From Fidelibacterota bacterium UBA7300 (lineage in GTDB: Bacteria > Fidelibacterota > Marinisomatia > Marinisomatales > UBA2128): DNA of 38,698 nt. Below, piece after piece: positions 14,430 to 35,111 of the stretch. Below the pieces are notes generated by a model. It made no database searches and had not been told where the DNA came from. It saw nothing but the letters and a program-made list of their open reading frames with translations. Position 1 is the first letter of the stretch; each line of letters begins with the position of its first letter. The stretch spans positions 1,993 through 40,690 of the forward strand of contig DKQU01000009.1 in NCBI GenBank assembly GCA_002471865.1, in the 5' to 3' direction. The translations under genes were made by a program, and so were the position numbers.

Positions 14430-14628
14430 TGTTACTGTTGGCGATGTATTCCCGTTCGGAGAGCGACAGATTGATCTCCTTTTCCGCTAATCCCGTAGGT
14501 CTCACGGCTCTAGAAGTTTTACCGCCATGACCTGGATCAAGACAGAAGGAGACGCCAGAGAAATCCTGTCCGCTGAATAGCGATATAATCAACACTGAGA
14601 GATAAAGTGATATCTTAATATGATTCAT
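14416..14628 (-). pseudogene. Truncated N-acetylmuramoyl-L-alanine amidase (Amidase_3) remnant: signal peptide plus the first ~40 aa of the catalytic domain
   Basis: The 70-aa ORF reads MNHIKISLYLSVLIISLFSG..FCLDPGHGGKTSRAVRPTGLAEKEINLSLSER. It matches the start of AmiA/AmiC/CwlD-type domains (.DPGHGG.D.GA....G..EK..NL......L) and then stops. Its 3' end overlaps the ldcA start by 14 nt, so there is no room for the rest of the domain. Confidence 0.5.
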
Positions 14629-14632
14629 AAGA

Positions 14633-16756: not shown

Positions 16757-16767
16757 GGAATCAGTCC

Positions 16768-17949: not shown

Positions 17950-17950
17950 T

Positions 17951-21906: not shown

Positions 21907-24606
21907 ATGAAGGACGAAAAATTGGAAAGGAATTGTTTTGTGAATCTGAACCGTCAGTTTCTTATCCTTCTTTTATTAACATCTAATCTTTTTGCTGCAA
22001 GCGGCAAAGTTTCTGGTAGAATTATTAGTGCAGAAACGGGTGAACCTCTTCCTGGAGTTAATGTTATTATTGAAGAAGTATCACTAGGAGCTGCGACTGA
22101 TTTGAATGGTGAATATGTCATTTTAAATATACCCTCGGGGAGTTATACGCTTCATGTATCTTATATTGGATTTGCTAAGCATACGATTAAGGGTTTAAGC
22201 GTCTATACGGATCGGACAACTCGGCAAGATTTTTCCTTAAAACAGGAAGATATTGAGGGAGAAGAGGTTATAGTGGTAGCAGAAAGACCATTGATCCAGA
22301 AGGATCTAACAGCATCTCAAAAAACTCGAACAGCTGAGGATATTAAAGATATGCCGGTTGAAACCTTCTTGGGTGTTTTAACTACACAAGCAGGAGTAAA
22401 CCAGGGTGCAGGTGGAGAGCTTCATATAAGAGGCGGTCGATACAATGAAGTTGGGTATTACATAGATGGAATATCAGTAACTAATCCTTTTTTCACAAAT
22501 TCCCTTGCCACCAATGTAGCCAATAAAGCTATTGAGGAGATGAGAGTTGTAAGTGGTGCCTTTAATGCGGAATATGGGAATGCCATGAGTGGAATTGTTA
22601 ATCTTGAGATCAAAGAGGGAGGTCCAACATACGAAGGCAGTTTTTCCATGTATACCGGTGATTATCTCTCTAGTGATACCAAGATTTTTATGAATATTGA
22701 CGAGGTAAATTATTTATCCAATCAAGTTATTGAAGGAACGCTTAATGGTCCGGTACCTCTGCTTTCTACCGGGGGGAAATTCACTTTTAACGTAAGTGGA
22801 CGATACAGTAATAGTGACGGATATTTATATGGGAAACGGGAGCATCTGCCGGATGATTATGCAGATTTCAGGGTATCTGATTATTGGTATATTGAATTAG
22901 GTGGTGATAATAAATATGTACCTATGAATCCGTCAAACAGTTTGAATATGCTTACTAAACTAACTCTTAGAATTACCCCTAAGTTGAAAGTGTCGACACA
23001 GATGCTTCACGATCAACGCAATTGGAAATCATATAACCATGCGTACAAATACAATCCTGATGGCACTTACAATCACTTTACTGCAAATGACAATTTTTCT
23101 CTAAAGTTATCCCAAGTCTTCACAAAAACATTTTATGAAGCAAACGTGTTTTATTCTACTACGGATTTTAGCCAATATGTTTATGAAGACCCATTTGATG
23201 AAAGATATGTTTCTACAAATACTATTCAGGGAGCTCCTCCGACTACGACCTTCGTTTTCGGAGGTACACAGATGGGTCATTATTACCGGGAGTCTATATC
23301 CAAAGGAGGTAAATTTGACCTGACCAGCCAGATTACCAGTAAACATGAGATAAAAATAGGTGTTAGTGGTAGACTGGATGATCTTGAAGAAAACAATTTC
23401 ACCGTTCTCTATGATGGTTATGATTACCCAGTACCCACGGTTCTTCCTGCGAATGATTCCCCGAGCCATAACTATTATAACAAAAATGCATTTTTTGCCT
23501 CTTCCTACATTCAGGATAAAATTGAATACACTAACATGGTTGTAAATGCGGGTATCCGGTACGATTATTTTGATCCTAATGATAATTACATTGTGGATCA
23601 GTTAAATCCCGAGGGAGAAAGAGAGGAAGCCAAACCCAAATCAATGATCTCACCACGACTAGGTGTTTCATTTCCCATCACGGATCGCGGAGTTCTTCAC
23701 TTTTCCTATGGACATTTTTATCAAATGCCAACGCTGAGACGACTTTACAAAACCAGCATTTTTGGTGCTAATCTGTCACCGACGATCGGTTACAGTAATT
23801 TAAAGCCGGAAAAGACAGTAATGTATGAGTTTGGACTTCAGCAACAACTGTCTCACATTATAGCAGTTGATGTGAGCGCTTACTACAAGGACATTCGGGA
23901 TTTGCTTGCCGTTCAGTCCATAGATTATCAATCCCCAACTTACGGACCTGCTTCCTATAGCATTTATCTGAACAAAGATTATGCAACGGTGAAGGGTTTT
24001 GCTATCAGCTTAACAAAACGGTACGATCGTTTCTCTAAGACGTCTGCTTTTATTGATTATGCTTATCAGATGACCGATGGAAATGATGTTAACTCTGGAT
24101 CCTTCTACTTCAACGCATTGACAGGGGAAGAAGAGGAGAAAAGAATTGTTCCCCTTAATTGGGATCAATGGCATGTTTTTAACGCTACTATCACTATCAG
24201 TGATCCAAATAACTGGGGCATCAGTGTAATCGGTAAACTTTCAAGCGGTTGGCCTTATACGCCAGATATCCCCAATGCTAATTATGTCCCTGAATCTAAT
24301 AGCGCTCGAAAACCTTGGCAGAAAAGTGTAAATGTCAGAGTGTATAAAACCGTGAATGTGGGGAAAATGAATGTGGTTATATTTACCAAAATTTTTAATC
24401 TTTTTGATACGAGAAATGAAAGATACGTTTATGATGATACTGGTAGATCTGGTTATACTTTTATAAATCGAACCAATCAGGAAACAGAAGCATTTATAGA
24501 ACATTATGGCGAGCCCGGTGTTCATACCTGGGAAGAATATCAAGTTAGACCTCATTACTATAGTACTCCCCGATCAGTACAGATGGGGCTTTCACTGGAT
24601 TTTTAA
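21907..24606 (+). CDS. TonB-dependent outer-membrane receptor with an N-terminal carboxypeptidase-regulatory-like domain
   Basis: GKVSGRIISAETGEPLPGVNVIIEE..GAATDLNGEYVILNIPSGSYTLHVSYIGF is the CarbopepD_reg-like domain. The plug-like region reads EEVIVVAERP...DIKDMPVETFLGVLTTQAGV...LHIRGGR. A ~650-aa barrel follows, ending ..QMGLSLDF with a terminal Phe. The true start may be GTG 21940 (VNLNRQFLILLLLTSNLFAASG), which is preceded by GGAAAGGA. Confidence 0.85.
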   Translation: MKDEKLERNCFVNLNRQFLILLLLTSNLFAASGKVSGRIISAETGEPLPGVNVIIEEVSLGAATDLNGEYVILNIPSGSYTLHVSYIGFAKHTIKGLSVYTDRTTRQDFSLKQEDIEGEEVIVVAERPLIQKDLTASQKTRTAEDIKDMPVETFLGVLTTQAGVNQGAGGELHIRGGRYNEVGYYIDGISVTNPFFTNSLATNVANKAIEEMRVVSGAFNAEYGNAMSGIVNLEIKEGGPTYEGSFSMYTGDYLSSDTKIFMNIDEVNYLSNQVIEGTLNGPVPLLSTGGKFTFNVSGRYSNSDGYLYGKREHLPDDYADFRVSDYWYIELGGDNKYVPMNPSNSLNMLTKLTLRITPKLKVSTQMLHDQRNWKSYNHAYKYNPDGTYNHFTANDNFSLKLSQVFTKTFYEANVFYSTTDFSQYVYEDPFDERYVSTNTIQGAPPTTTFVFGGTQMGHYYRESISKGGKFDLTSQITSKHEIKIGVSGRLDDLEENNFTVLYDGYDYPVPTVLPANDSPSHNYYNKNAFFASSYIQDKIEYTNMVVNAGIRYDYFDPNDNYIVDQLNPEGEREEAKPKSMISPRLGVSFPITDRGVLHFSYGHFYQMPTLRRLYKTSIFGANLSPTIGYSNLKPEKTVMYEFGLQQQLSHIIAVDVSAYYKDIRDLLAVQSIDYQSPTYGPASYSIYLNKDYATVKGFAISLTKRYDRFSKTSAFIDYAYQMTDGNDVNSGSFYFNALTGEEEEKRIVPLNWDQWHVFNATITISDPNNWGISVIGKLSSGWPYTPDIPNANYVPESNSARKPWQKSVNVRVYKTVNVGKMNVVIFTKIFNLFDTRNERYVYDDTGRSGYTFINRTNQETEAFIEHYGEPGVHTWEEYQVRPHYYSTPRSVQMGLSLDF

Positions 24607-24629
24607 TGTTAATCAGGAGTTGTTTGTAA

Positions 24630-27600
24630 ATGAAGCTTAAAATAGAAATTTCAAGAACTTCTATTTTTCTTCTTTTGATAAGTTTATTAATAATTATTCC
24701 TTTCAATACGCTCTCCAGTCAATGGAAGTTCTTTGGAAAGAAAGATAATACAGCCATGCACGAACTTGTGCCAGAAAAGGATTGGCCTGAGTGGAAATAC
24801 CGCGACTACTACGACTGGCGTAACACGGCATTGATGAGACAGTTGGATGATGAAGATGACCCGCAGATACTTAGACGGCAAAAAGCTATTCTTGTAGGTA
24901 ATAAGATTTCCGCTGAAATCTGGAATTTTGGATCTATTTCCAGCCCAGGAAATCATACTTCCGATATTGTATGGGAAGGACTCGGATATGGATATGAATT
25001 TGGTCCGTTTATTTGCGCAGAAGTTGAAGTGACTCCATCCAGCCATCAGGATGCTTACATCAAGACCGATGAACTTGGAAATCCGGTTATCAACGAGGAG
25101 GGCGACACTGTCTGGGTAGCGAGAGTCATTAGTGATGGTTTGGTTTCTCTGGGAGGTGAAGTATCACCTGATGGTCAAGAATTCTGGGGATGGCAGCCTC
25201 TTGCATATAACAATGAGCTTGTTCCTTATGCGGATCCTAACAGCAATTATATCCCCACATCAAATGATGTGGACCGCGATGGTGATGGTAAACCAGACAG
25301 CTGGCCTGAAGGGTGGTACAATGAGAATCTAAAGGAATTTGTTTGGCCCGGGGCTCTAAAACAAGGTGCATCTAATTCTGATATGGAAAGCTTCTTTGTG
25401 GTGGACGACCGAACTAACAAGGAATTTGAATATTATCCAATCAGCAACGATTCTACCCGTAAAGGACTTGGAATTGAAATTGAATGTCGGTATTACCAGT
25501 GGTCCAACCCTTTAGCTGAAGATATTATTTTTCTTATTTACAAAGTTACTAATGTCAGTGACAAAGATCTTGAGGAAGTCATATTTGGAATGTGGGGTGA
25601 TCCCCATGTTGGCGGATGGGCAAACTGGCAGGATGACCTCTCCTTTTTTGATCAAGATATAAATATGGTGTACTGCTGGGATGAAGATGGAGTCAGTGAT
25701 GTGTCTGGACGTCCCCCGGGGTATTTTGGCTATAAATTTCTGGAGAGTCCAGGGAACCCATATGATGGTATAGATAACGACGATGATAATATGATAGACG
25801 AAAGCCGGAGTGACGGAATCGATAACGATTTAGATTGGGATGTTGAAAAACATGATGTTGGAGTTGACGGTCTTCCTAATACTGGCGACGAAGGTGAAGG
25901 AGATGGTGAGCCAACCGCAGGAGATCCTTTTGATATCCGCGAACCTGGAGAACCTAATTACGAATGGACTGACTTGGACGAGGCGGATATGGTGGGGTTA
26001 ACAGGATTTTCCTCACCTGTGTTCGGAGGAAATAACACCATATCAGAAGATCATCACGTATTCGAAGATTTTTTGACTCCGGGAGTATTTGATTCTGCAA
26101 ATGCTAATACGGCCGGAGATTATATTTTCATCTACAGCTCAGGACCGATTGATCTACCTGCTGGAGAAGCTCGGCGGTTTTCAGTCGCATTGTTGGTAGG
26201 ACAAAATTATCAAGATCTTACATTGAATGCTGTGACAGCTCAAAGCATATATGAGCGGAATTATCAATTTGCAAAACCTCCTGAAAAACCTAAGGTCACA
26301 GCTGTTCCAGGTGATGAGAAGGTGACCTTCTACTGGGATGACGTGGCGGAATCTTCTGTGGATCCAATTTCAGAAACAGAAGATTTTGAGGGGTATGTTA
26401 TCTATCGCAGCACCGATCCGCAGTTCTTGGATCAGCAAACAATCACAGACGCTTACGGTTCGAATTTTCTGTTTACTCCACTAGAAATGGTGGGAGGAGC
26501 CCCTGCCCGATTTGACCTTGATAATGAATATAGCGGTTTAAGTGATATTCTTTATACCGGGCATGGTATTCCCTATAACCTTGGCAACAATACTGGAATC
26601 CTGCACTCTTTTGTGGACTCTAACAATGTGATTAACGGTCAAACATATTACTATGCCGTTGTCTCTTATGATCATGGAGATGATAGCTTGGAGATAGCTC
26701 CCGCAGAATGTTCCAAACTGATTACACTAAATCCTGAATCGAACGAAATTTTCCTCGATGTGAATACAGTACAGATCATTCCTCGCTCTCCCGCTGCAGG
26801 ATATGTGGAAGGACAAGTAATAGATGATGATATTTTACACCTATCGGGAATTGCTACAGGGAACCTGAGAGTTGAGATTATCGATCCTATGAAAATAGAA
26901 GATCAGGATACATTTAAAGTAACTTTTCAGGAGTCGCCAACTCGGTTTTCCATTGAGGACCTGAAACTCATAGATGATCAGTTTATCGCCAATGTAGATA
27001 AATTTATCTCTCTTTCTCATAAGAATATCAATGATAGTACTTTTTATCTTACAGATACGGCAGAAGTAAATATCTATAACAGAGATGTAGATTATGAACT
27101 TGATGCAGAATTCGGTCGTATAAAAGCCCTCGCTACTGGAGATTTGGAGGATGGAATCCTCTATTTTGCCAAGTATACCTACTTACCGATTTTTGAGAGC
27201 CAGTTGATAGATAATGAAGAAGCGAATCCTGTATTTGATGGGATGAAGATCTTTGTTGAAGACCAACCCTTGGAGATTGACATTTCAAAGACGGGATGGA
27301 ATGCATTAAGTCCGACAAATTATACTGCAGTTGTCGGAGTGTATTCACAAGGTGGGAACTCTTATCCGGCAGATTATGAAGTTCGTTTTGCATCATCAAT
27401 TGTTGACACAGGATCTTATTCAGGCATTTTTACTCCATTCAATATATATAAAACCACTATGGGCATGGTTCCCGAAAAGCAGAGGTTTGCAATTATCAAA
27501 AAACCGCCCGATGTAAGCAATGATACCTGGGACACGCACGATGAAATCGTGTTGTTTGAGGGAGAGGGATTTGGATCGCCAACTTGGATGATTAAATTCT

Positions 27601-28061
27601 TTGAACCAAGTGAGGGAACACCTGTTCTTCCGACGGAAGATGACATTTTCTATGTCTTTACTTCCCGCCCATTCTATGAAGATGATGTATATACTTTTGC
27701 TACACAGGCATCTTATATAGACAATCAGCTCGGGGAAGCAAGTTTAGATCAAATATCGGTAGTTCCAAATCCCTACGTAGTAACTAATGTTTTGGAACAA
27801 CTAGATCGCCAAAATCCGAGAGACCGTGGTCCTCGACGGGTATATTTCAACCATTTACCTACAGAGTGTACGATTCGTATATATACAATGTCAGGTGAAT
27901 TAGTAAAAACCCTGTATCATCAATCTGATCTTGATGATGGTAAGGAATTTTGGGATCTGACGACGAAAGATAATTTCCCAATTGCTTATGGTGTTTATAT
28001 CTTTCACGTGGATGCCGGAGAATTGGGGCAAAAGATTGGTCGTCTTGGTGTCATTAAATAA
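24630..28061 (+). CDS. Giant (1143 aa) secreted/surface protein of unknown function. It has an Asp-rich Ca-binding-type repeat region, an Fn3-like segment and a variant T9SS-like C-terminal domain. Paralog of 2..1732.
   Basis: Hydrophobic N-terminal signal/anchor (SIFLLLISLLIIIPF). The Asp-rich region, at about nt 25764..25934, reads YDGIDNDDDNMIDESRSDGIDNDLDWDVEKHDVGVDGLPNTGDEGEGDGEPTAGDPFD. The Fn3-like stretch reads PEKPKVTAVPGDEKVTFYWDD...FEGYVIYRS. The C-terminus reads ISVVPNPYVVTNVLEQLDRQNPRDRGPRRVYFNHLPTECTIRIYTMSGELV...GVYIFHV...GRLGVIK. AGGAG lies 13 nt upstream, and the gene starts 23 nt after the receptor stop. Confidence 0.8.
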   Translation: MKLKIEISRTSIFLLLISLLIIIPFNTLSSQWKFFGKKDNTAMHELVPEKDWPEWKYRDYYDWRNTALMRQLDDEDDPQILRRQKAILVGNKISAEIWNFGSISSPGNHTSDIVWEGLGYGYEFGPFICAEVEVTPSSHQDAYIKTDELGNPVINEEGDTVWVARVISDGLVSLGGEVSPDGQEFWGWQPLAYNNELVPYADPNSNYIPTSNDVDRDGDGKPDSWPEGWYNENLKEFVWPGALKQGASNSDMESFFVVDDRTNKEFEYYPISNDSTRKGLGIEIECRYYQWSNPLAEDIIFLIYKVTNVSDKDLEEVIFGMWGDPHVGGWANWQDDLSFFDQDINMVYCWDEDGVSDVSGRPPGYFGYKFLESPGNPYDGIDNDDDNMIDESRSDGIDNDLDWDVEKHDVGVDGLPNTGDEGEGDGEPTAGDPFDIREPGEPNYEWTDLDEADMVGLTGFSSPVFGGNNTISEDHHVFEDFLTPGVFDSANANTAGDYIFIYSSGPIDLPAGEARRFSVALLVGQNYQDLTLNAVTAQSIYERNYQFAKPPEKPKVTAVPGDEKVTFYWDDVAESSVDPISETEDFEGYVIYRSTDPQFLDQQTITDAYGSNFLFTPLEMVGGAPARFDLDNEYSGLSDILYTGHGIPYNLGNNTGILHSFVDSNNVINGQTYYYAVVSYDHGDDSLEIAPAECSKLITLNPESNEIFLDVNTVQIIPRSPAAGYVEGQVIDDDILHLSGIATGNLRVEIIDPMKIEDQDTFKVTFQESPTRFSIEDLKLIDDQFIANVDKFISLSHKNINDSTFYLTDTAEVNIYNRDVDYELDAEFGRIKALATGDLEDGILYFAKYTYLPIFESQLIDNEEANPVFDGMKIFVEDQPLEIDISKTGWNALSPTNYTAVVGVYSQGGNSYPADYEVRFASSIVDTGSYSGIFTPFNIYKTTMGMVPEKQRFAIIKKPPDVSNDTWDTHDEIVLFEGEGFGSPTWMIKFFEPSEGTPVLPTEDDIFYVFTSRPFYEDDVYTFATQASYIDNQLGEASLDQISVVPNPYVVTNVLEQLDRQNPRDRGPRRVYFNHLPTECTIRIYTMSGELVKTLYHQSDLDDGKEFWDLTTKDNFPIAYGVYIFHVDAGELGQKIGRLGVIK

Positions 28062-28080
28062 TGAAAAAGTAAAAAAAAAG

Positions 28081-29115
28081 ATGAAGTCAACTATCAAGAT
28101 TCAACTCTTATGCCTACTTGTCTTTGGGAACTTTGGTTGGTCCCAATTGGATAACGTGCAGACGATCACCAAAACAGGGACCACTGCAGCACAATTCTTG
28201 AAGATTGGTGTAGATCCAAGAGGATCATCTATGGGGAATGCTTTTACAGCGATGCCAGGAGATGTCAGTTCTATGTTCTGGAATCCTGCTGGGTTAACCG
28301 CTGTAAAAAGGATCGAATCCATGTTTGTTGAAAGTGATTGGCTGGCAGGAGTGAGTTATAATTATTTGGCTCTTGCACTACCGATTCGTAGTATAGGTGT
28401 GCTAGGGATGAGCATCACAAACTTATCTGTTCCTGAAGAGATCGTTCGTACGGTAACTGACCCGGAGGGCACTGGAGAATATTGGGATGCACAAGATCTG
28501 GCAATCAATCTTGCTTTTGCTAGAACTTTAACTGACAGGTTTTCTATAGGTGCAAATATTAAATATATTCAACAGAATATTTGGCATGCCACCGCCGATG
28601 CATTTGCTGTGGATATAGGTGCTCTGTTCATCACACCGTGGGGAGTCCGATTGGGGGCAAGCCTTGCCAATTATGGTAATTATATGAGACTGTCTGGACG
28701 GGATCAAAAATTAAGTGTTGATCCTGATCCTCAGAACCAAGGAAACGTTGAATTTGTAAATGCCATGTATGAGACAGATTATTTTCCTCTTCCACTCATG
28801 TTTCGTGTAGGATTATCAGGAGAGATTATAAAAACCAATGCATTGCGGCTTAGTTTTGGTGTGGATGCACTGCATCCAAACGATAACAGTGAAGCGGTTA
28901 ACGCTGGGTTTGAAATGGCAATGGGTGAGACTATTTTCCTCCGGGGTGGACATGCAAACCTGTTCAGAGAAGGTGCCGAAGAGGGATTTACACTTGGTGG
29001 AGGGATTCATTATAGGTTAAAGAGTAGTCCTACAATTATTAAGATAGATTATTCCTATTCTGATTTTAGCAGGTTAGAAGGAGTCCAACGAATATCCATG
29101 GGGATTAAATTTTAG
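28081..29115 (+). CDS. PorV/PorQ-family (LptO-like) T9SS-associated outer-membrane beta-barrel, copy B
   Basis: MKSTIKIQLLCLLVFGNFGWSQ is the signal peptide. GTTAAQFLKIGVDPRGSSMGNAFTAMPGDVSSMFWNPAGLTA follows. The protein is collinear with 1750..2802 over its full length (..ALHPNDNSEAVNAG..FLRGG...IDYSY..) and ends ..MGIKF. The track ORF start at 27982 lies inside the upstream gene, so ATG 28081 is preferred. Confidence 0.7.
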   Translation: MKSTIKIQLLCLLVFGNFGWSQLDNVQTITKTGTTAAQFLKIGVDPRGSSMGNAFTAMPGDVSSMFWNPAGLTAVKRIESMFVESDWLAGVSYNYLALALPIRSIGVLGMSITNLSVPEEIVRTVTDPEGTGEYWDAQDLAINLAFARTLTDRFSIGANIKYIQQNIWHATADAFAVDIGALFITPWGVRLGASLANYGNYMRLSGRDQKLSVDPDPQNQGNVEFVNAMYETDYFPLPLMFRVGLSGEIIKTNALRLSFGVDALHPNDNSEAVNAGFEMAMGETIFLRGGHANLFREGAEEGFTLGGGIHYRLKSSPTIIKIDYSYSDFSRLEGVQRISMGIKF

Positions 29116-29215
29116 TCTCCCTTTACACGAAATCCCCAGATTTACTGTTCGCAAGAGAGAAGGTAATTTTATCATCAGAAAGCTATTTTCTAAAGATTTG
29201 TTATATAAGTAATTC

Positions 29216-30517
29216 ATGAATAAAAAACTAAGTGTCATCTTTGTTTATCTAATTATTGTTATCTTTCCTCAATCTGGATTTTGTTTCTCTGATATCGCTC
29301 AGAAAATATCAAGTCAGATAGTCTCCCGCGTATTAAGGTCAGGACAAGTTGTACAGCTCATCGGTGTTACCGAGGATTATACTAATATGGGTAATATTGA
29401 AGGAGTAGCTATCCACATTTATTCGGAAAATATTCCAGATGTTTCTCTCCGTTTTCAATATGATAATGGTAACTGGTCGGAGTGGCAAAACGCCCAACTG
29501 TTTACTGAGCCGTTTTCGTACCGTTCCATTGCCTGGTTCAGGGGTGAACTGGCCAAATCATCCATGCGATATGAATATAACACTTCCGTTCAGCAGGGTA
29601 GCATAGAGATACTAAGTGTTGGCCTGTTTCTTGAAGATAATGAAGAATATCCCATTGTATCTGAAATCCCCAAAGTAACACCACATGATTTGCAAAAACC
29701 CCGTATTATTACCAGAGAAGAGTGGGGAGCTCAACCCCCAACACATGGTTATACAAATCACCCATACTTTACAAAGTTAACTCTTCACCATGCGGCGGGA
29801 TTTTCCGCCTCGAATATTGAAGAAGGGAAAATTCAGATGAGGGCTATTCAAGACTTTCATCAGATTGTCCGTGGATGGAGTGATATTGGTTATCACTTTG
29901 TTGTTGATCGAGCAGGTAACATTTATCAAGGGAGACCTGAGACAGTAATTGGTGCTCATGTGCTTAGCCATAACACGGGCAATATTGGTGTATGTGTTCT
30001 AGGGTGTTATCATCCACCGGAATTGTATTGTAATGATCAACTTACTCAAGCTTCAAGAGATTCGCTGGTCAAACTTTACGCGTGGATTTCTGAAACATAT
30101 GACTATAATCCTTATGTTCTTCTCGGTCATAGAGATTATCCAGACAATGATACTTCATGCCCTGGTAACAATGTCTGGTCTCTTTTATATTCAATAAGAG
30201 ATGCAATAAATATTTATATAGAAATGGGAGGGCCTCCACTTTACTATACATTATCACAGAATTATCCTAACCCATTTAATCTGCAAACAACAATTCTCTT
30301 CGATTTACCAAAAGAAAGTATGGTTCATTTGACTATATTTAACATCCAGGGTAGAGTAGTAAAAAAAGTTGTAGACCAGATTATGAATAAGGGAATACAG
30401 ACAGTTATGTGGGATGGAAGAAATATTGAAGATACCCAAGTAAGTGCAGGAGTTTATCTATACCAAATAGAGGCTGGAGATTTTGTGCAGACCAAGAAGA
30501 TGGTGCTCCTAAAGTAA
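29216..30517 (+). CDS. N-acetylmuramoyl-L-alanine amidase (Amidase_2/PGRP-type) with a T9SS C-terminal sorting domain
   Basis: ITREEWGAQPP...LTLHHAAG...IQDFHQIVRGWSDIGYHFVVDRAGNIYQGRP...GAHVLSHNTGNIGVCVLG...SCPG is the amidase_2 (T7-lysozyme/PGRP) pattern. The CTD reads QNYPNPFNLQTTILFDLP...AGVYLYQI...KKMVLLK. Confidence 0.8.
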   Translation: MNKKLSVIFVYLIIVIFPQSGFCFSDIAQKISSQIVSRVLRSGQVVQLIGVTEDYTNMGNIEGVAIHIYSENIPDVSLRFQYDNGNWSEWQNAQLFTEPFSYRSIAWFRGELAKSSMRYEYNTSVQQGSIEILSVGLFLEDNEEYPIVSEIPKVTPHDLQKPRIITREEWGAQPPTHGYTNHPYFTKLTLHHAAGFSASNIEEGKIQMRAIQDFHQIVRGWSDIGYHFVVDRAGNIYQGRPETVIGAHVLSHNTGNIGVCVLGCYHPPELYCNDQLTQASRDSLVKLYAWISETYDYNPYVLLGHRDYPDNDTSCPGNNVWSLLYSIRDAINIYIEMGGPPLYYTLSQNYPNPFNLQTTILFDLPKESMVHLTIFNIQGRVVKKVVDQIMNKGIQTVMWDGRNIEDTQVSAGVYLYQIEAGDFVQTKKMVLLK

Positions 30518-30607
30518 AAGAGATATGTTAGTTTGGCATAAGCACTGACTTCACCGGATGGAACCAATAGGTGATCAATTTGTGCAGGATTGGTTAAACT
30601 GGCACAA

Positions 30608-33070
30608 CTATTTCAGTAGAGTAAACTTTCGGGCGTAGCTCTGACCACCTGATTTAAGCAGTACGGTGTAAGTTCCCGATGCTGCCATTTCTCCGGCAAA
30701 CGTCTTTCCATTCCATTTTACAGTGAGTTCGCCCCCGGTGGTCGGCAAAGCGGTTAGAGGAATTTCAGCCACTGACCGTCCAAGAATATCAAGGATCTTG
30801 ATAATAGATGTTTCTGCCTGAAATCCCTGAGAGATCTGGATCAATATATTGACTTGGAGATTTGCAGGATTGGGGTAAATGGCAGTGATGCTCGGAGTTT
30901 GTGGCAACGGTGTTGGATCAGTCACTAATTGGAGGTTCGTGTAGAAGTAGTTCAGCATTTCGGACATGATAGCGTTCCTGCTCTCCTCCGGGTAGATGGT
31001 CTCGAAAGGGATGGCAAGATGTACCACTCCTCCCTGAGAAGAACTTCCCCCGAAATTTCCGATGTACTCTATTCCTGCTCCTCCCTTTGTGGAATAATCC
31101 ACATTGTTGTATTTAAGATTTATGGCAGATCCAGCGGTAGGTTTGATCCCATCCGGCCAGTCCACATCATAAGTGCCATGACTTCCGTTGTCAAAGGTAA
31201 CGCTGGAAAAGTCGGAGAAGATTCCTCCGTCAGTGCCGAATGCTTCATAAGTTCCCTGTTGGCCGCCTGCCGCGTCAGAGACAAAAACTGACTTCAGATA
31301 ATCGGTGTAGAAAGCATAATCAGCAGCATCTCCCTCAGCCACCAGATCGTAACCGATTTCTGAACCTGAAACAAATAGTCCCCGCCCTGCCTCGAGGAAG
31401 TCCATCACCTCTGCTTGTTCAGCCGCTGTAAAGGAGCTGGTAGCTGTTCCTTCTTCGCCCAGAATCCAGTCAACAATGAAGTAATCGTTCAAATTGATAC
31501 TGCCTGATTCCACAACTTCGTTAGCGCAGGCGTCGAAGGCAACCCCGGCGGCTTGAATGGCAGGACCGTGGCGGCGAATGAAATCAAATGTGTTGGTGGT
31601 GCCGTTAACACGGTCGAAGCCGTTTACCACCAGGATAGGAACTTCCTCAGAAGTTGGTATTACACCCAGCACTTCTGTCATAGGGCTTTCGCCATACTCG
31701 TTCTCTGCTGATATTTGGAAGTAGTACAGTTCGTCTTCTGTTAGATTGGTCAAGACTACAGGTTCACTTGAAAAGGTTGCGAGCAACTCTGAACTGCCTG
31801 CTAACCAGCTGTAGATGTTAAACTCACTGGCGCCGCTTGGCGTAGAGAAGTTGATTTGCACCGAGCCGTCGCCTATATTGATGATACTCAGATTGGTGGG
31901 AGTTGTGGGCGGAGCAGAAGCGCCAAAGTGATCAGCCAGCGCTCCCCATAACTCCGGTTCAGTTCCGTCATAGCCGAGTGCCCAAATACCGATACCCAGC
32001 AAGTCTTCGTCGATGGCCAACTCGTATTTAAGGGAAAGTGAGAGGCTGTCATCATACCACCCTTGGTGCCAGTTACTGCTGCCATCTTGGTAGTGGTACC
32101 ACGGTGTCTGGGATTCATCGTTCCACAAGGGGCCGTAACTCTCCGCCAGAGCGATGGCTTCGGAGTAGAATTTGGCATCGCCGCTCCCGGTAGTGGATGC
32201 TCCGGCGCTGCCGGAAGTAGTTGGCCATTCGTATCCGTAGTACGGCAAGCCGAGGATGATCTTATCCCGGTCGTTTCCGGTCTCGTTCAAGTAGTCGTTC
32301 ACGGTCCAAGTGACGTTGTAGGTACCCCAGCCGGATAGGGGAGAGACAGGTCCTGCCGTGGGACTGCCGCTCCAGTGATAGGCGTAACCCATGATCATCA
32401 AGCCGTCGCAAGTTTCAGCGAGAGCGTCGTAATCAAAGGCGTTAGACCAATCCACAGCCGGAGTAGCCATAGTCACCTGTGATGCCGGATTCGCTTCGTG
32501 AAAAGCTGCAGTTAGATCCGTCATGAATGTGGTAAGGTTGTTACGTTGGCTGGAGGGGACACCTTCAAAATCTATATTCACCCCGTCAGCTCCAGCATCG
32601 TTTACCTCTGTCAGGAGATTATTGATGAGTGTCTGCCGGTTGGAAGGGCTGCTCAAAAGCTGGGCTAAGTTATCGCTGTTGAATAGGATGACTCCCAATG
32701 AGACTTCTGTTCCGTACGAGTGAGCTTCGTTGATGAGGCTCGTCACCGGCCAGCCGTGATGATCAACTATATTACCGCTGCCGTTGATCTCCAAACCGAA
32801 ATAGGCGATGGTGGAAATGAGATTGAAGTTGTAGCTCTGCCACGCCGTCCCCATCCAGTAGGGGTGGTAACCGAATACCTCCCTGGAGGGTATTGTCCGT
32901 CGTGCCTGTATTGGGATAGAAGCACCATAGGATTCGGTTTTGATGTCACGATATAGCTCTCGGAAGATTTCGTGTTGTTCTTGGTGGATACTTTTGTGAT
33001 ACTGTCCGGTAGCGACGTTTGTCAGCATTAAAACAAAGGCCAAAAAGAGTAATGCCTGCAGTAGCTTCAT
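30608..33070 (-). CDS. GH18 glycoside hydrolase (SleL/YaaH-like, chitinase-like) + Fn3-like + uncharacterised ~230-aa module + T9SS C-terminal sorting domain
   Basis: VFGYHPYW...LSTIAYFGL...ADGVNIDFEG is the GH18 DxxDxDxE region with Asn at the second Asp position, as I recall for Bacillus YaaH/YdhD-type enzymes. ...LMIMGYAYH...LGLPYYGY...IGIWALGYD follows. The Fn3-like region reads PTNLSIINIGDGSVQINF. The shared module reads VPILVVNGFDR...LFVSGSEIGYDL. The CTD variant reads AIYPNPANLQVNILIQ...GTYTVLL...RKFTLLK. Confidence 0.8.
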   Translation of the reverse strand: MKLLQALLFLAFVLMLTNVATGQYHKSIHQEQHEIFRELYRDIKTESYGASIPIQARRTIPSREVFGYHPYWMGTAWQSYNFNLISTIAYFGLEINGSGNIVDHHGWPVTSLINEAHSYGTEVSLGVILFNSDNLAQLLSSPSNRQTLINNLLTEVNDAGADGVNIDFEGVPSSQRNNLTTFMTDLTAAFHEANPASQVTMATPAVDWSNAFDYDALAETCDGLMIMGYAYHWSGSPTAGPVSPLSGWGTYNVTWTVNDYLNETGNDRDKIILGLPYYGYEWPTTSGSAGASTTGSGDAKFYSEAIALAESYGPLWNDESQTPWYHYQDGSSNWHQGWYDDSLSLSLKYELAIDEDLLGIGIWALGYDGTEPELWGALADHFGASAPPTTPTNLSIINIGDGSVQINFSTPSGASEFNIYSWLAGSSELLATFSSEPVVLTNLTEDELYYFQISAENEYGESPMTEVLGVIPTSEEVPILVVNGFDRVNGTTNTFDFIRRHGPAIQAAGVAFDACANEVVESGSINLNDYFIVDWILGEEGTATSSFTAAEQAEVMDFLEAGRGLFVSGSEIGYDLVAEGDAADYAFYTDYLKSVFVSDAAGGQQGTYEAFGTDGGIFSDFSSVTFDNGSHGTYDVDWPDGIKPTAGSAINLKYNNVDYSTKGGAGIEYIGNFGGSSSQGGVVHLAIPFETIYPEESRNAIMSEMLNYFYTNLQLVTDPTPLPQTPSITAIYPNPANLQVNILIQISQGFQAETSIIKILDILGRSVAEIPLTALPTTGGELTVKWNGKTFAGEMAASGTYTVLLKSGGQSYARKFTLLK

Positions 33071-33075
33071 TAGTC

Positions 33076-34380
33076 TTAATCTCCGTTCCAGTTACACCCA
33101 GCAAAGATATCCTCAATGGTTTCTTTCTTTCGTATCATTCTTGGTTTGCCGTTTTCCATTAGCACCTCTGCCGGCCTGGATCGTGTGTTATATGGAGTAG
33201 CCATTACATAGCCGTAGGCGCCAGCGTCCATGATAGCCACAAGGTCGCCTTCGTTCAAGGTGGGGAGGTCCCGATCAACTGCTAACCGATCACTGTTCTC
33301 ACAGATACCACCTGTTACGTCTACAGTCTGAGTTGTTGGCGCCTCAGGTTCACCAATCTTTAGAATGCGATGGTAGGCATTGTAGAGGGCTGGCCGGATG
33401 AGTGTGTTCATTCCGGCGTCAAGACCCACGAACCGCTTGTAACTTTCCTTCACTCCCGTCACTCGACTGAGAATGAAACCGGCATCTGCCACTAGGTACT
33501 TCCCCGGTTCTATAAAGAGGGCAGGAGTATCAGGGGAGTTCCGGTCATAGAATTTTCTAAATACCTTCCCGAGACTCTCGAACAGCTCACTGACATCAAG
33601 AGATGATTCATCAAGTTTATACGGAATTCCAAATCCGCCGCCCATGCTGATGTATTCAAAGGTTATACCAAGCGATTCTTCAATTTCCCGGGCTACAGTC
33701 AGAATAGCTGAGAGAAGCTCTACGAAATAGCCAGGGTCTAGATTGCCGGAGCCGGTCATGCACTGCAAGCCAAACCGCTCCACACCGTCATCTTGCGCCA
33801 AGCGGTAGGCATCGATTATTTTCTCTCGCGGTATACCAAATTTGGCTTCCCGTCCGGCGGTAACAATGGCGGGGAAGCGACCTTTTCCGAAGCCGGGATT
33901 CAGGCGAAAAGAGATCTCCTTTGGGACACTTATCTTTCGTAGGCGGAGGTAGCTGGAGGAATCATCAAGATTCAGATGGACTCCGGAATCGAGGGCGGTC
34001 TTTAGCTCTTCTGGACTCTCATAATTTCCTGTGTAGATACACCTCTCAGGTGGGATGTTGAGTCTCTGAGCTATGTAAAGTTCGCCTGGACTAGAGCAGT
34101 CTGCTCCAAGGGAGGAAGCTGCCCCTAACAAGACAGAGAGGATGTGGGGATTAGAATTGGCTTTTAGCGCATAACAGATCTGAGACTTCGGGAATGAACC
34201 GGAGAAAGCATTTTCCATCCGTGAGGTGTTGTCTCTCAAGCGGTCGGCGTCGTAAATGTAGAGGGGAGTACCAAATTCACAAGCGAGATCTTCTGCGAGA
34301 ACACGGTCAGAGATGAGCTGTTGAAGAGGATGGGGTGTGGTTGTTAATGTCATGTCTGAAAGATAAAATAGCTCAATCAA
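33076..34380 (-). CDS. lysA: Diaminopimelate decarboxylase (PLP-dependent Orn/DAP/Arg decarboxylase family 2)
   Basis: TPLYIYD, CYALKAN (PLP-Lys motif), ISMGGGFGIPY, GGICENSD and AGAYGY. It sits 5 nt upstream of the GH18 start and 1 nt after the fxsA stop. An alternative ATG lies at 34353. Confidence 0.85.
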   Translation of the reverse strand: MIELFYLSDMTLTTTPHPLQQLISDRVLAEDLACEFGTPLYIYDADRLRDNTSRMENAFSGSFPKSQICYALKANSNPHILSVLLGAASSLGADCSSPGELYIAQRLNIPPERCIYTGNYESPEELKTALDSGVHLNLDDSSSYLRLRKISVPKEISFRLNPGFGKGRFPAIVTAGREAKFGIPREKIIDAYRLAQDDGVERFGLQCMTGSGNLDPGYFVELLSAILTVAREIEESLGITFEYISMGGGFGIPYKLDESSLDVSELFESLGKVFRKFYDRNSPDTPALFIEPGKYLVADAGFILSRVTGVKESYKRFVGLDAGMNTLIRPALYNAYHRILKIGEPEAPTTQTVDVTGGICENSDRLAVDRDLPTLNEGDLVAIMDAGAYGYVMATPYNTRSRPAEVLMENGKPRMIRKKETIEDIFAGCNWNGD

Positions 34381-34381
34381 T

Positions 34382-34777
34382 TTACCTCATAATCATGGTA
34401 AAGTTCGTTCTGCCTGAGTCTGCCATATCCCGGAATTTTTTTCTGATGGCACTTTTAAAGAGATTTCTGGTTACCGGGATGAGAAGCATGAAGCCGAAGA
34501 TATCAGTTAAAAGTCCCGGTGTCAGCAATACGATTCCGCCGATGAGAATGAGCAATCCGTCCACAAGTTTATCCGCCGGCATGTTTCCCTGCGAAAGCTC
34601 ATGCTGAATCTCCAACCAGATCCACATACCCTGGGATCTGGCTAGAGAGGCACCAAGGACGCCAGTAACGATTACCAGAAAGATGGTAGGCCAGAAGCCG
34701 ATTTCACGCCCCAGCTCAATGAGTATCATAAGTTCCAGCAACGGGATGCCGATGAAGATAAATAGAAGCTTTGTCAC
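34382..34777 (-). CDS. fxsA: FxsA-family cytoplasmic membrane protein (UPF0716)
   Basis: LLFIFIGIPLLELMILIELGREIGFWPTIFLVIVTGVLGASLARSQG...LLLTPGLLTDIFGFMLLIP is the characteristic FxsA pattern. Confidence 0.8.
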   Translation of the reverse strand: MTKLLFIFIGIPLLELMILIELGREIGFWPTIFLVIVTGVLGASLARSQGMWIWLEIQHELSQGNMPADKLVDGLLILIGGIVLLTPGLLTDIFGFMLLIPVTRNLFKSAIRKKFRDMADSGRTNFTMIMR

Positions 34778-34867
34778 GGTATCTGAATTTTGGCAGGGAG
34801 AGACAAACTAGCAACCTAAACATGTAGAACTTTGCACACTTTTCCCCGAGGCATTATATTCACCCTC

Positions 34868-35101: not shown

Positions 35102-35111
35102 GGAGAAGAAA

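What the first reader, a model, noticed from the sequence alone, without database searches (positions are those of the whole stretch)
29216..33070. Cassette B is flanked by T9SS-tagged amidase_2 and SleL/YaaH-like GH18: all four peptidoglycan bond classes are covered by exported enzymes
An amidase_2/PGRP-type MurNAc-L-Ala amidase with a CTD lies directly downstream of the receptor/giant/barrel triad, after a 100-nt gap. A GH18 with a CTD lies convergent to it.

The GH18 catalytic region ADGVNIDFEG has Asn at the second Asp position. As I recall, this resembles Bacillus YaaH(SleL)/YdhD-type enzymes, which act on spore-cortex PG fragments. A true chitinase or endo-beta-N-acetylglucosaminidase cannot be excluded.

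Together with the M23 (peptide bridges) and GHL10/DigH-like (denuded glycan) proteins at 14633..19786, the exported set would cover four targets. These are the stem-peptide/glycan link, the cross-links, and two kinds of glycan cleavage. A TonB-dependent receptor sits in the middle to import products. This is the composition one would design for a murein utilisation locus.
Basis: partly seen in the sequence, partly recalled or inferred. Interest (0 to 1): 0.6.

Follow-up and report, generated by a model that had tools for sequence, protein, structure and literature searches.

The report
Exported cell-wall-cutting enzymes in SAR406
An uncultured ocean bacterium of the SAR406 group exports two enzymes that most likely cut up other bacteria's cell walls for food, and one of them belongs to a family that earlier work on these bacteria read as a chitin-degrading enzyme.

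Summary
The gene at 29216-30517(+) encodes a PGRP/T7-lysozyme-type zinc amidase with an intact active site and a T9SS tail. The gene at 30608-33070(-) encodes GH18 + fn3 + an unnamed 265-aa domain ('X') + a T9SS tail.

The Asn-in-motif argument is not diagnostic. In a profile search of solved structures, true chitinases score above SleL/YaaH.

Gene context supports a peptidoglycan role instead. In 58 distinct relatives' loci with GH18+X:
- the exo-muramidase NamZ lies directly downstream in 45;
- lysA lies directly upstream in 34;
- a second NamZ lies directly upstream in 14.

One whole branch has Alr-GT2-x-SpoIID-NamZ-GH18-NamZ-MFS-SSF-MFS, which resembles the Tannerella forsythia MurNAc salvage operon.

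Domain X is also fused to Amidase_3, GHL10 and a PBP-like fold.

The amidase lies beside the TonB receptor/giant/PorV cassette in 15 of 16 relatives.

Best reading: exported endo-N-acetylglucosaminidase plus amidase that feed NamZ, MurQ, LdcA and LysA.

This scan found SAR406 cell-wall salvage clusters before on other DNA (e1-2403377 and others), and Fidelibacter's dependence on muropeptides is published. I therefore class this as a new variant of a known kind. Biochemistry and co-regulation remain untested.

The parts
29216..30517 (+). Gene for the exported PGRP-type N-acetylmuramoyl-L-alanine amidase (433 aa): signal peptide, beta-sandwich N-domain, Amidase_2 domain, T9SS tail
29297..29635 (+). 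Amidase N-terminal beta-sandwich domain (residues 28-140); no family assigned
   Evidence: AlphaFold2 pLDDT 84-94 for this stretch. Only generic beta-sandwich matches, Z about 7.8. No Pfam hit.
29699..30187 (+). Amidase_2/PGRP catalytic domain (residues 162-324). H191, Y226, H305, T313 and C315 are invariant.
   Evidence: PDB phmmer: 4z8i 1.9e-24, PGRP-LB 3.3e-20, T7 lysozyme 3.1e-12. Invariant columns in 15 orthologues. VIA-align Z 12.0/10.9.
30257..30514 (+). T9SS type A C-terminal sorting domain of the amidase
   Evidence: Structural match to the PorU, PorZ and mirolase CTDs, Z 8-10.
30518..30607 (.). Convergent intergenic spacer with an imperfect hairpin
   Evidence: RNA fold of 30510-30615: -26.8 kcal/mol, z -2.6. 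RNA-library contigs of two studies end at 30478. This is a weak hint only.
30608..33070 (-). Gene for the exported GH18 + fn3 + X + T9SS-tail protein (820 aa)
31901..32908 (-). GH18 catalytic domain (residues 55-390). Motif D162-G-V-N165-I-D167-F-E169 lies at 32564-32587.
31670..31903 (-). Fibronectin type III domain (residues 390-467)
30866..31663 (-). Domain X (residues 470-735): GATase1/ThuA/GIFT-like flavodoxin fold with an invariant Glu571 in 'GSEIG' at the strand-helix elbow
30611..30880 (-). T9SS type A C-terminal sorting domain of the GH18 protein
33076..34380 (-). lysA (diaminopimelate decarboxylase), 5 nt upstream of the GH18 gene on the same strand. It is the only lysA found in the assembly.
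   Evidence: TIGR01048 377.7 bits against 297.9. Single copy. Directly upstream of GH18+X in 34 of 58 relatives' loci.
34382..34777 (-). fxsA, 1 nt upstream of lysA. Not a conserved member: seen only in L003.
21907..29115 (+). Cassette B: TonB-dependent receptor, 1143-aa protein, PorV/PorQ-like barrel. The amidase follows it.
   Evidence: Orthologous cassettes lie beside amidase orthologues.
20002..21762 (-). FG-GAP protein with a T9SS tail, divergent from the receptor. In 8 relatives the amidase lies next to its orthologue.
13485..19786 (-).

Best explanation
The two genes encode surface-exported (type IX secretion) enzymes of a peptidoglycan foraging and salvage pathway of Marinimicrobia/Fidelibacterota (SAR406).

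Proposed pathway:
1. The PGRP-type zinc amidase strips stem peptides from MurNAc.
2. The GH18+X enzyme cuts the glycan strand. GH18 chemistry needs a GlcNAc acetamido group at the -1 site, so the most likely cut is the GlcNAc-beta-1,4-MurNAc bond, made as an endo-N-acetylglucosaminidase. The fragments then begin with MurNAc.
3. The fragments cross the outer membrane, probably through the neighbouring TonB-dependent receptor cassette.
4. NamZ exo-muramidases (two copies elsewhere in this genome) and GH3 enzymes trim them.
5. SSF/MFS transporters carry the sugars in and MurQ opens MurNAc-6P.
6. LdcA processes the peptides, and LysA turns released meso-diaminopimelate into lysine.

Shown here:
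- the domain make-up of both proteins;
- intact catalytic residues;
- the presence of T9SS parts in the genome;
- conserved gene neighbourhoods;
- the fusions of domain X;
- the presence of the downstream pathway genes.

Inferred:
- the substrate and the bond cut;
- export to the cell surface;
- import through this particular receptor;
- use of the products as food rather than as a weapon.
For: (1) Active sites.
- The amidase aligns with catalytic PGRPs and T7 lysozyme. The His/Tyr/His/Thr/Cys positions are conserved and invariant in 15 orthologues.
- The GH18 keeps D167-x-E169 in all 41 aligned sequences.

(2) Export.
- Both proteins have signal-peptide-like N-termini and type A CTDs above the cut-offs.
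- PorU scores 685 bits against 420, and SprA pieces are present.

(3) Context of GH18+X in 58 distinct relatives' loci.
- NamZ lies directly downstream on the same strand in 45.
- LysA lies directly upstream in 34.
- A NamZ paralogue lies directly upstream in 14.
- LdcA lies directly upstream in 2.
- 12 of the 13 loci L037-L049 (all but L041), plus L093, L095 and others, carry all or part of Alr-GT2-unk-SpoIID-NamZ-GH18-NamZ-MFS-SSF-MFS (L044 only NamZ-GH18-NamZ-MFS-SSF-MFS).
- That order parallels the T. forsythia operon gtf-gtf-lytB-ampG-namZ1-murT-murK-murQ (passages of bioRxiv 10.1101/2021.12.02.470905).

(4) Biochemical fit. The NamZ paper states that endo-N-acetylglucosaminidases leave MurNAc at the non-reducing end. 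It also states that the NamZ substrate MurNAc-GlcNAc is made from peptidoglycan with an amidase plus an endo-N-acetylglucosaminidase (passages of PMC8054146).

(5) Domain X.
- It is shared with the C-terminal half of the window's M23 protein (BLASTP 6e-14; hhalign 85.5%).
- Among 28 other X proteins examined, the recognisable partner domains were Amidase_3 x5, GHL10 x1, beta-lactamase/PBP fold x1 and LysM x1. No partner domain was recognised in the other 20.

(6) Amidase context.
- Full-length orthologues occur in 16 of 200 other genomes searched.
- 15 of those 16 lie beside cassette-B genes: 7 after the PorV-like barrel and 8 beside the FG-GAP gene.
- L012, L013, L076 and L099 show LysA-GH18-NamZ convergent with amidase-PorV-giant. 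That is the window's layout plus NamZ.

(7) The window's own genome (84% complete).
- Present: NamZ x2, one of them in an SSF-NamZ-MFS operon; MurQ at 357 bits against 302; GH3 x2.
- A single GH18 and no GH20 found.

(8) RNA libraries. Metatranscriptome contigs from 3 studies cover both genes. Contigs from all four runs span the GH18-lysA junction.

(9) Published biology. A cultured member of the phylum lives on exogenous muropeptides (abstract and passages of PMC11652737).
Against: - No enzyme assay exists for any GH18+X protein.
- Sequence alone does not separate the catalytic domain from chitinases.
- The Asp after the conserved Tyr of the 'MxYD' strand varies among orthologues: A, G, D, N, P, S.
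- In this window NamZ is not next to the GH18, and the three congeners searched have no Amidase_2 at all. The pairing of the two genes of the finding is therefore not a fixed unit.
- GH18 homologues without domain X in other phyla (44 loci) have no peptidoglycan-related neighbour, except L101, which does carry X.
- lysA is the only copy in the genome, so its linkage could reflect housekeeping synteny.
- Related genomes are not independent, so the tallies overstate the number of independent events.
- 20 of 28 X proteins have no recognisable partner domain.
- Contig data cannot show transcription, its level or co-regulation.
Confidence: 0.7

Rival explanations
1. The GH18 is a secreted chitinase or chitodextrinase, as GH18 of SAR406 was read in earlier work, and the amidase is unrelated to it.
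For: - Chitinases score high in the profile search of solved structures: 8hw6 119 bits and chitotriosidase 103 bits, above YaaH and SleL.
- Thrash et al. 2017 listed SAR406 GH18 under chitin (passages of PMC5596340).
- T9SS-secreted chitinases exist in Bacteroidota (recalled, not checked here).
Against: - NamZ flanks GH18+X in 45 of 58 loci. SpoIID, alanine racemase, LdcA and LysA are the other neighbours.
- Every recognisable partner domain of X is a cell-wall enzyme family.
- No GH20 was found in the 84%-complete assembly.
- The best solved relatives are 4WIW and the YdhD spore-associated type.
Confidence: 0.12
2. The exported amidase and GH18 are weapons that lyse neighbouring bacteria, with nutrient gain only secondary.
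For: Both enzymes are exported wall hydrolases. An M23 and a GHL10 enzyme with T9SS tails lie in the same window.
Against: - The conserved partners are catabolic and uptake genes (NamZ, transporters, LdcA, LysA, MurQ). No immunity-like genes were seen.
- The wall of Gram-negative neighbours is shielded by an outer membrane (general knowledge).
- This reading is not exclusive of the main one.
Confidence: 0.1
3. The enzymes remodel or recycle the cell's own wall, and the T9SS tails are not used for export.
For: - lysA is the single housekeeping copy.
- MurB is present, so the cell makes its own wall.
- The salvage operons of B. subtilis and T. forsythia also serve recycling.
Against: - Type A CTDs score above the cut-offs and PorU is present.
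- A separate Amidase_3 gene on contig C83 is available for the housekeeping role.
- The amidase is tied to an outer-membrane receptor cassette.
Confidence: 0.05
4. The GH18 is an endo-beta-N-acetylglucosaminidase for N-glycans of eukaryotic glycoproteins.
For: A weak GH85 hit (E 3.4e-4, 20.7 bits against a cut-off of 22.2). PF03644 is listed for many orthologues.
Against: GH85 and GH18 are related folds, so a cross-hit is expected. No mannosidase or other N-glycan genes lie nearby.
Confidence: 0.03

Closest known systems
Tannerella forsythia PG/MurNAc salvage operon (Tanf_08345-08385: xanthan-lyase-like, gtf, gtf, lytB, ampG, namZ1, murT, murK, murQ) with NamZ1/NamZ2
   Same: Relatives of this GH18 sit in an operon of the same make-up: GT2, an unknown gene, a SpoIID/LytB-type protein, NamZ paralogues and MFS transporters. 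The window's genome has NamZ x2 and MurQ.
   Different: The passages of the T. forsythia preprint read name no GH18, no PGRP amidase, no T9SS-tagged endo-acting enzyme and no TonB-receptor cassette. In this window the operon is split: GH18 is with lysA, and NamZ is on other contigs.
Bacillus subtilis murQ-murR-murP-amiE-nagZ-namZ operon
   Same: An amidase plus glycosidases plus NamZ take peptidoglycan apart to MurNAc and GlcNAc (passages of PMC8054146).
   Different: The B. subtilis enzymes are exo-acting, in a Gram-positive cell. Uptake is by PTS. There is no GH18.
SleL/YaaH, YdhD and the 4WIW protein (GH18 of spore formers; SleL is an N-acetylglucosaminidase acting on cortex fragments)
   Same: These are among the best solved relatives by sequence: 4WIW and YdhD rank first and second. 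They also lack Asp at the second position of DxxDxDxE. JGI names orthologues 'spore germination protein YaaH'. SleL's glucosaminidase activity is cited in a table of PMC10653849.
   Different: There are no LysM domains and no sporulation context. YaaH and SleL score below true chitinases in the profile search. The protein here adds fn3 + X + a T9SS tail.
Catalytic PGRPs (Drosophila PGRP-LB, amphioxus PGRP3) and T7 lysozyme
   Same: The fold and the zinc/catalytic residues match.
   Different: This is a bacterial protein with an N-terminal beta-sandwich and a T9SS tail. It is genetically tied to a TonB receptor/giant/PorV cassette.
Fidelibacter multiformis IA91 (cultured member of the phylum) living on exogenous muropeptides
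   Same: The same phylum and the same resource (abstract and passages of PMC11652737).
   Different: IA91 cannot make its own wall. This genome has MurB. The primary paper (Nat Microbiol 2024) is not held, so I could not see whether it describes exported GH18 or amidase genes.
Polysaccharide utilisation loci of Bacteroidota (SusC/SusD with surface enzymes)
   Same: Surface enzymes sit next to a TonB-dependent receptor with a SusC-like N-terminus.
   Different: There is no SusD. A giant protein and a PorV-like barrel stand in its place. The substrate is peptidoglycan.

Membership tests
Amidase_2 / PGRP / T7-lysozyme zinc amidases | Sequence match to the family model above the curated cut-off | tested here: met
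   PF01510 at 59.9 bits against 26. PDB 4z8i at 1.9e-24.
Amidase_2 / PGRP / T7-lysozyme zinc amidases | Zinc ligands His, His, Cys and the catalytic Tyr (their roles are recalled; PDB titles name C160S and Y78F mutants of PGRP-LB) | tested here: met
   These residues align with PGRP-LB. H191, Y226, H305 and C315 are invariant in 15 orthologues.
Amidase_2 / PGRP / T7-lysozyme zinc amidases | Hydrolysis of the MurNAc-L-Ala bond | not testable with these tools
   Needs an enzyme assay.
Glycoside hydrolase family 18 | TIM-barrel domain match and the catalytic D-x-E of DxxDxDxE | tested here: met
   PF00704 at 124.6 bits against 29.6. D167 and E169 are kept in 41 of 41 sequences.
SleL/YaaH/YdhD-type (cortical-fragment-lytic) GH18 | Closer to these than to chitinases by sequence | tested here: inconclusive
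   Single-sequence search: 4WIW, YdhD, YaaH and SleL rank first. Profile search: 4WIW 147 bits, YdhD 133, chitinase 8hw6 119, chitotriosidase 103, YaaH 97, SleL 92. No tree with named references could be built.
SleL/YaaH/YdhD-type (cortical-fragment-lytic) GH18 | N-terminal LysM domains (recalled as typical of SleL/YaaH/YdhD) | tested here: not met
   No LysM hit in Pfam at E up to 0.01.
SleL/YaaH/YdhD-type (cortical-fragment-lytic) GH18 | N-acetylglucosaminidase activity on peptidoglycan fragments | not testable with these tools
   Inferred from NamZ adjacency only.
T9SS type A cargo | C-terminal sorting domain above the cut-off and T9SS machinery in the genome | tested here: met
   TIGR04183 at 43.7 and 32.8 bits against 23. 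PorU at 685 bits against 420. SprA pieces on contig ends, each below the cut-off.
NamZ-centred peptidoglycan salvage system (T. forsythia / B. subtilis type) | NamZ, MurQ and sugar transporters present and genetically linked to the enzyme | tested here: met
   All are present in this genome. The linkage is met in relatives: 45 of 58 loci. In this window the linkage to NamZ is lost.
Class I glutamine amidotransferase-like / ThuA / GIFT fold (domain X) | Flavodoxin-like fold | tested here: met
   Model pLDDT 86.9. Foldseek hits to the GH42 middle domain, STM3548, a ThuA-like protein and IFT52, at E 5e-8 to 2e-5 and TM 0.5-0.6.
Class I glutamine amidotransferase-like / ThuA / GIFT fold (domain X) | Cys-His-Glu triad | tested here: not met
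   Glu571 stands in 'GSEIG' where the Cys of G-x-C-x-G would be (the position is recalled). The strand-helix junction is taken from the model's secondary structure. Pfam matches are only weak, at 0.0001-0.02.
Bacteroidota-type PUL | SusC/SusD pair | tested here: not met
   No SusD-family hit was found among the window's proteins. The receptor has only a SusC-like N-terminus.

The most novel reading that the evidence does not exclude
GH18+X defines a peptidoglycan-specific branch of GH18: an exported endo-N-acetylglucosaminidase that hands MurNAc-ended fragments to NamZ.

Domain X would be an undescribed module of the exported wall hydrolases of this phylum. It has a GATase1-like fold with an invariant Glu at the nucleophile elbow. 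It could be a glycan-strand clamp or a second catalytic site.

Together with a PGRP-type amidase tied to a SusD-less TonB receptor cassette, this would make a true 'murein utilisation locus'. SAR406 would use it to consume bacterial wall debris in the ocean interior, and its 'chitinase' genes would have been misread.
Probability: 0.35. Interest if true: 0.7.

Novelty: new variant of a known kind. Interest (0 to 1): 0.5.

Why it matters
Peptidoglycan remnants are a large, poorly accounted part of marine dissolved and particulate organic matter (general knowledge, not checked here). SAR406 is abundant in the dark ocean.

If its single GH18 and the PGRP-type amidase are surface enzymes for wall debris, three things follow:
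- Genome-based carbon budgets that count SAR406 GH18 as chitinase (PMC5596340) need correction.
- GH18 gains a second peptidoglycan-active branch outside spore formers.
- The NamZ pathway gains its missing endo-acting first step in Gram-negative foragers.

Domain X gives a handle for finding further exported wall hydrolases whose catalytic domains are still unnamed (20 of 28 examined).

Tried and rejected
- Tree of GH18 against named SleL, chitinase and ENGase sequences. Not possible: no tool returns the reference sequences, and I did not type any. HMMER rankings against PDB stood in for it and were inconclusive.
- NCBIfam gave no model for the GH18 or amidase catalytic parts.
- Sigma-70 promoter and terminator scan of 28900-35200. 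Nothing usable; terminator-like sites were below the shuffle mean.
- Context of GH18 homologues outside the phylum. I scanned 82 immediate neighbours of 44 loci. None is peptidoglycan-related except NamZ in L101. The 44 GH18 proteins themselves and the second-ring neighbours were not scanned.
- ESM Atlas for domain X. Best score 0.87 (a DUF4960 cluster), below the 0.9 line, so a lead only.
- A profile of X found only the GH18 copy in the window's genome. The M23 protein's X-like part is seen only by BLASTP and hhalign.
- Amidase N-domain: no specific fold match. The model of the catalytic part was poor (pLDDT 40-80), although sequence and fold matches are clear.
- RNA contigs cannot rank genes or show co-regulation. 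Parts without cover are not evidence.
- Literature searches for GH18 with NamZ, Marinimicrobia with peptidoglycan or T9SS, and TonB-dependent peptidoglycan uptake found no description of GH18+X, of domain X, or of a PGRP amidase tied to a receptor cassette. The key primary paper (Nat Microbiol 2024) is not held, and bioRxiv supplements are closed, so this absence is provisional.

Full report
**What is there**

The window is contig C49:1993-40690 of a 1.55-Mb, 112-contig assembly that is 84% complete. Public names on near-identical proteins are 'Candidatus Marinimicrobia', 'Fidelibacterota' and 'FCB group' bacterium. Record titles of related loci say the same.

ORF 29216-30517(+) encodes 433 aa in four parts:
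- a signal-peptide-like start;
- a confidently modelled beta-sandwich at residues 28-140 (pLDDT 84-94) with no specific fold match;
- an Amidase_2/PGRP domain (Pfam E 4.2e-16);
- a type A T9SS tail.

ORF 30608-33070(-) encodes 820 aa in five parts:
- a signal peptide;
- a GH18 domain (E 8.7e-36);
- an fn3 domain;
- a 265-aa stretch without any Pfam family, here called X;
- a T9SS tail.

On the minus strand, fxsA, lysA and the GH18 gene follow each other with gaps of 1 and 5 nt.

**The amidase**

Its best solved relatives are amphioxus PGRP3 (1.9e-24), Drosophila PGRP-LB (3.3e-20), clostridial endolysin amidases and T7 lysozyme (3.1e-12). Fold comparison agrees: VIA-align Z 12.0 for 4z8i, 11.2 for 6srt and 10.9 for PGRP-LB, and Foldseek gives the same families.

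The residues that align with the zinc ligands and catalytic Tyr of PGRP-LB are present. H191, Y226, H305, T313 and C315 are invariant in 15 orthologues. Three further cysteines (C260, C264, C272) are invariant too and remain unexplained. The protein therefore looks like an active MurNAc-L-Ala amidase. It is the only Amidase_2 in the assembly.

**The GH18 domain**

The motif is D162-G-V-N165-I-D167-F-E169. Asn165 is kept in 37 of 41 aligned orthologues and is Asp in three. D167 and E169 are kept in all 41.

With the single sequence, the best solved relatives are 4WIW (1.1e-27), YdhD (6.4e-23), YaaH (3.4e-17) and SleL (1.7e-15), ahead of chitinases (1.8e-13 and weaker). At the Asn position these four carry V, T and H.

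With a profile of 32 orthologues the order changes:
- 4WIW 147 bits;
- YdhD 133;
- a chitinase (8hw6) 119;
- chitotriosidase 103;
- YaaH 97;
- SleL 92.

The sequence therefore places the domain near the spore-former group but does not separate it from chitinases. JGI's pipeline names several orthologues 'spore germination protein YaaH'. SleL is recorded as a glucosaminidase that cleaves small fragments (table passage of PMC10653849).

**Gene context of the GH18**

I took 40 loci around full-length matches from a 201-genome sample of the phylum and the 80 best loci of a scan of species-representative genomes.

Filtering went as follows:
- 9 duplicates were removed.
- 53 loci were set aside because the GH18 ORF shows no domain X: 4 of my 40 and 49 of the 80. 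Some of these are cut by contig ends.
- 58 distinct loci remained. The window itself is not among them.

In these 58 loci:
- NamZ (the GH171 exo-beta-N-acetylmuramidase) lies directly downstream on the same strand in 45.
- lysA lies directly upstream in 34.
- A second NamZ lies directly upstream in 14.
- An LdcA paralogue lies directly upstream in 2.

A whole branch carries Alr - GT2 - unknown - SpoIID - NamZ - GH18+X - NamZ - MFS - SSF - Atg22-like MFS on one strand. This branch includes 12 of the 13 loci L037-L049 (all but L041; L044 shows only the part from NamZ onward), plus L093, L095 and others. L037 and L039 were annotated by Pfam. The others were assigned by phmmer with the L039 proteins.

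This is the gene order of the T. forsythia MurNAc/peptidoglycan salvage operon (gtf, gtf, lytB, ampG, namZ1, murT, murK, murQ; passages of bioRxiv 10.1101/2021.12.02.470905), with a GH18 added.

Other arrangements:
- L050: SSF-LysA-GH18-NamZ.
- L035 and L036: LdcA - LysA-like decarboxylase - GH18.
- L036 continues with FG-GAP, TonB receptor and giant protein on the same strand.
- L007: LdcA-receptor-giant-PorV-GH18-NamZ.
- Three loci titled WOR-3 or untitled (L106, L107, L109): GH18+X, a ~180-aa ORF, then a TonB receptor.

By contrast, 44 loci from other phyla gave 82 immediate neighbours with no cell-wall function, apart from NamZ in L101. Most of their GH18 proteins lack X. L101, L106, L107 and L109 do have X. 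The context signal therefore belongs to the GH18+X group, not to the wider GH18 branch.

**Why this points to a bond**

The NamZ paper states that endo-N-acetylglucosaminidases produce glycans with MurNAc at the non-reducing end. It states that NamZ removes exactly such terminal MurNAc from peptide-free strands. It also states that its minimal substrate MurNAc-GlcNAc is prepared from peptidoglycan with an amidase plus an endo-N-acetylglucosaminidase (passages of PMC8054146).

GH18 enzymes use the acetamido group of the -1 sugar (established mechanism, recalled). That fits GlcNAc at -1 and MurNAc at +1. An exported amidase plus a GH18 glucosaminidase upstream of NamZ is thus a coherent pathway.

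The window's genome holds the rest of that pathway:
- two NamZ genes, one on C69 and one on C93 in an SSF-NamZ-MFS operon next to GlcD-like oxidase genes;
- MurQ above its cut-off;
- two GH3 genes;
- LdcA in the window.

It also has MurB. Unlike Fidelibacter multiformis (PMC11652737), it is therefore not obviously dependent on foreign wall material for building its own wall. Only one GH18 and no GH20 were found in the 84%-complete assembly.

**Domain X**

An alignment of 31 X domains gave a model with pLDDT 86.9. Foldseek matches the middle domain of GH42 beta-galactosidases, STM3548/STM1381, ThuA-like proteins, the IFT52 GIFT domain and glutamine amidotransferases (E 5e-8 to 2e-5, TM 0.5-0.6). 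Weak Pfam hits agree: ThuA, DUF4159, DUF4960, ABC_transp_aux.

Twelve columns are invariant. One is Glu571 in 'GSEIG' at the junction of a strand and a helix. That is where, as I recall, the nucleophile Cys of G-x-C-x-G sits in amidotransferases. It hints at a functional site, but nothing more can be said.

X occurs in 97 of 121 genomes of a phylum sample, mostly in several proteins per genome. Of 28 non-GH18 X proteins examined, the recognisable N-terminal domains were:
- Amidase_3 in 5;
- GHL10 in 1;
- a beta-lactamase/PBP fold in 1;
- LysM in 1;
- nothing recognisable in 20.

27 of the 28 end in a T9SS tail.

The window's own M23 protein (14633-16756) carries a diverged fn3 + X-like + tail half: BLASTP 6e-14 at 24% identity and hhalign 85.5%. 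It does not keep the GSEIG motif. Wherever its partner can be named, then, X accompanies a cell-wall enzyme.

**Context of the amidase**

Full-length orthologues were found in 16 of 200 other genomes of the phylum sample, all of the same order. In these 16:
- Seven follow the PorV-like barrel of the orthologous receptor/giant/barrel cassette, as in the window.
- Seven follow the FG-GAP T9SS protein that is divergent from the receptor.
- One is convergent with that FG-GAP gene.
- One (L030) lies beside LdcA instead.

In L008 and L022 the amidase is convergent with a NamZ gene. L012, L013, L076 and L099 have LysA-GH18-NamZ convergent with amidase-PorV-giant. The window's arrangement is thus the same supercluster with NamZ moved elsewhere.

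The three congeners (90-97% complete) have no Amidase_2 at all. One congener (G099) and G083 have an Amidase_3+X+tail protein instead. In the window, a 42-residue Amidase_3 remnant lies between the M23 and LdcA genes. This suggests, without proving, that the two amidase types replace each other.

**Export and expression**

PorU is present at 685 bits, and SprA pieces sit on contig ends.

RNA-library contigs of three studies cover the amidase, GH18, lysA and the cassette. Two runs match without a single difference. Contigs of all four runs span the GH18-lysA junction. Contigs cannot prove transcription or rank genes. Still, the contig depth over the FG-GAP gene (about 900-2500 in two runs) against 3-40 over its neighbours is not what contaminating DNA would give.

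**Comparison and novelty**

Salvage of wall sugars through NamZ is known in T. forsythia and B. subtilis, and one cultured member of this phylum lives on muropeptides. This scan has already described SAR406 wall-salvage clusters on other DNA, including a lysA-led operon with a T9SS GH18 and NamZ (e1-2403377; also e1-4446896, e1-4067568, e1-2489543). My tallies agree with these.

What this finding adds:
- the case that the SAR406 GH18, listed under chitin in Thrash et al. 2017, is the exported endo-acting enzyme of that pathway;
- domain X as a shared module of exported wall hydrolases;
- the PGRP-type amidase as a regular companion of a SusD-less receptor cassette.

My literature searches found none of these three points. 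The primary Fidelibacter paper is not held, so the claim of absence is provisional.

**Verdict**

It is weak in its stated reason (the Asn motif), and the claim of one co-regulated locus is untested.
- The finding is a new variant of a known kind of system.

Noticed in passing
window 14425-14544 (-): A weak Amidase_3 fragment (model positions 2-43, 21.6 bits, open frame 73 aa) lies in the 203-nt gap between the M23 and LdcA genes. It is probably the remnant of a lost exported amidase gene.
   Followed up: partly
window 20002-21762 (-): RNA-library contigs over the FG-GAP T9SS protein have depths of about 900-2500 (two runs) and 200-600 (a third). Neighbouring genes show 3-40. The gene may be very highly expressed, but contig depth is a poor measure.
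   Followed up: no
window 14633-16756 (-): The C-terminal half of the M23 protein is a diverged copy of the fn3 + X + T9SS-tail module of the GH18 protein. The invariant GSEIG motif is not kept.
   Followed up: partly
window 29993-30031 (+) (amidase residues 260-272): Three cysteines (C260, C264, C272 in 'GVCVLGCYHPPE..C') are invariant in all 15 amidase orthologues, in addition to the zinc-site Cys315. This could be a disulfide or a second metal site.
   Followed up: no
L106, L107, L109: In loci titled candidate division WOR-3 (L107) or untitled, a GH18+X gene is followed on the same strand by a ~180-aa ORF and a TonB-dependent receptor. In L106 a giant-protein homologue follows as well. This shows the same coupling in what the record titles call another phylum.
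   Followed up: partly
G099, G165, G201 (same genus); L163, L162: The three congeners have no Amidase_2 gene. G099 and G083 carry an Amidase_3 + X + T9SS-tail protein. The two exported amidase types may substitute for each other.
   Followed up: partly
G000 contig C93 (L064:132-9566): An SSF - NamZ - Atg22-like MFS operon lies about 1.5 kb from GlcD-like FAD oxidase and Fe-S (CCG) genes. These could oxidise the D-lactate released by MurQ, as described for Fidelibacter.
   Followed up: no
window 30478-30615: The convergent spacer folds into an imperfect hairpin (z -2.6). RNA-library contigs of two studies that cover the GH18 gene end at 30478, inside the 3' end of the amidase gene.
   Followed up: no
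window 24630-28061 (+): The 1143-aa 'giant' protein has a sub-threshold NCBIfam match to a phage tail tube protein model at residues 788-852 (33.5 bits against 60).
   Followed up: no
L155 (G103:C2): A 1715-aa protein carries two X domains in tandem, a weak LysM hit and no T9SS tail.
   Followed up: no
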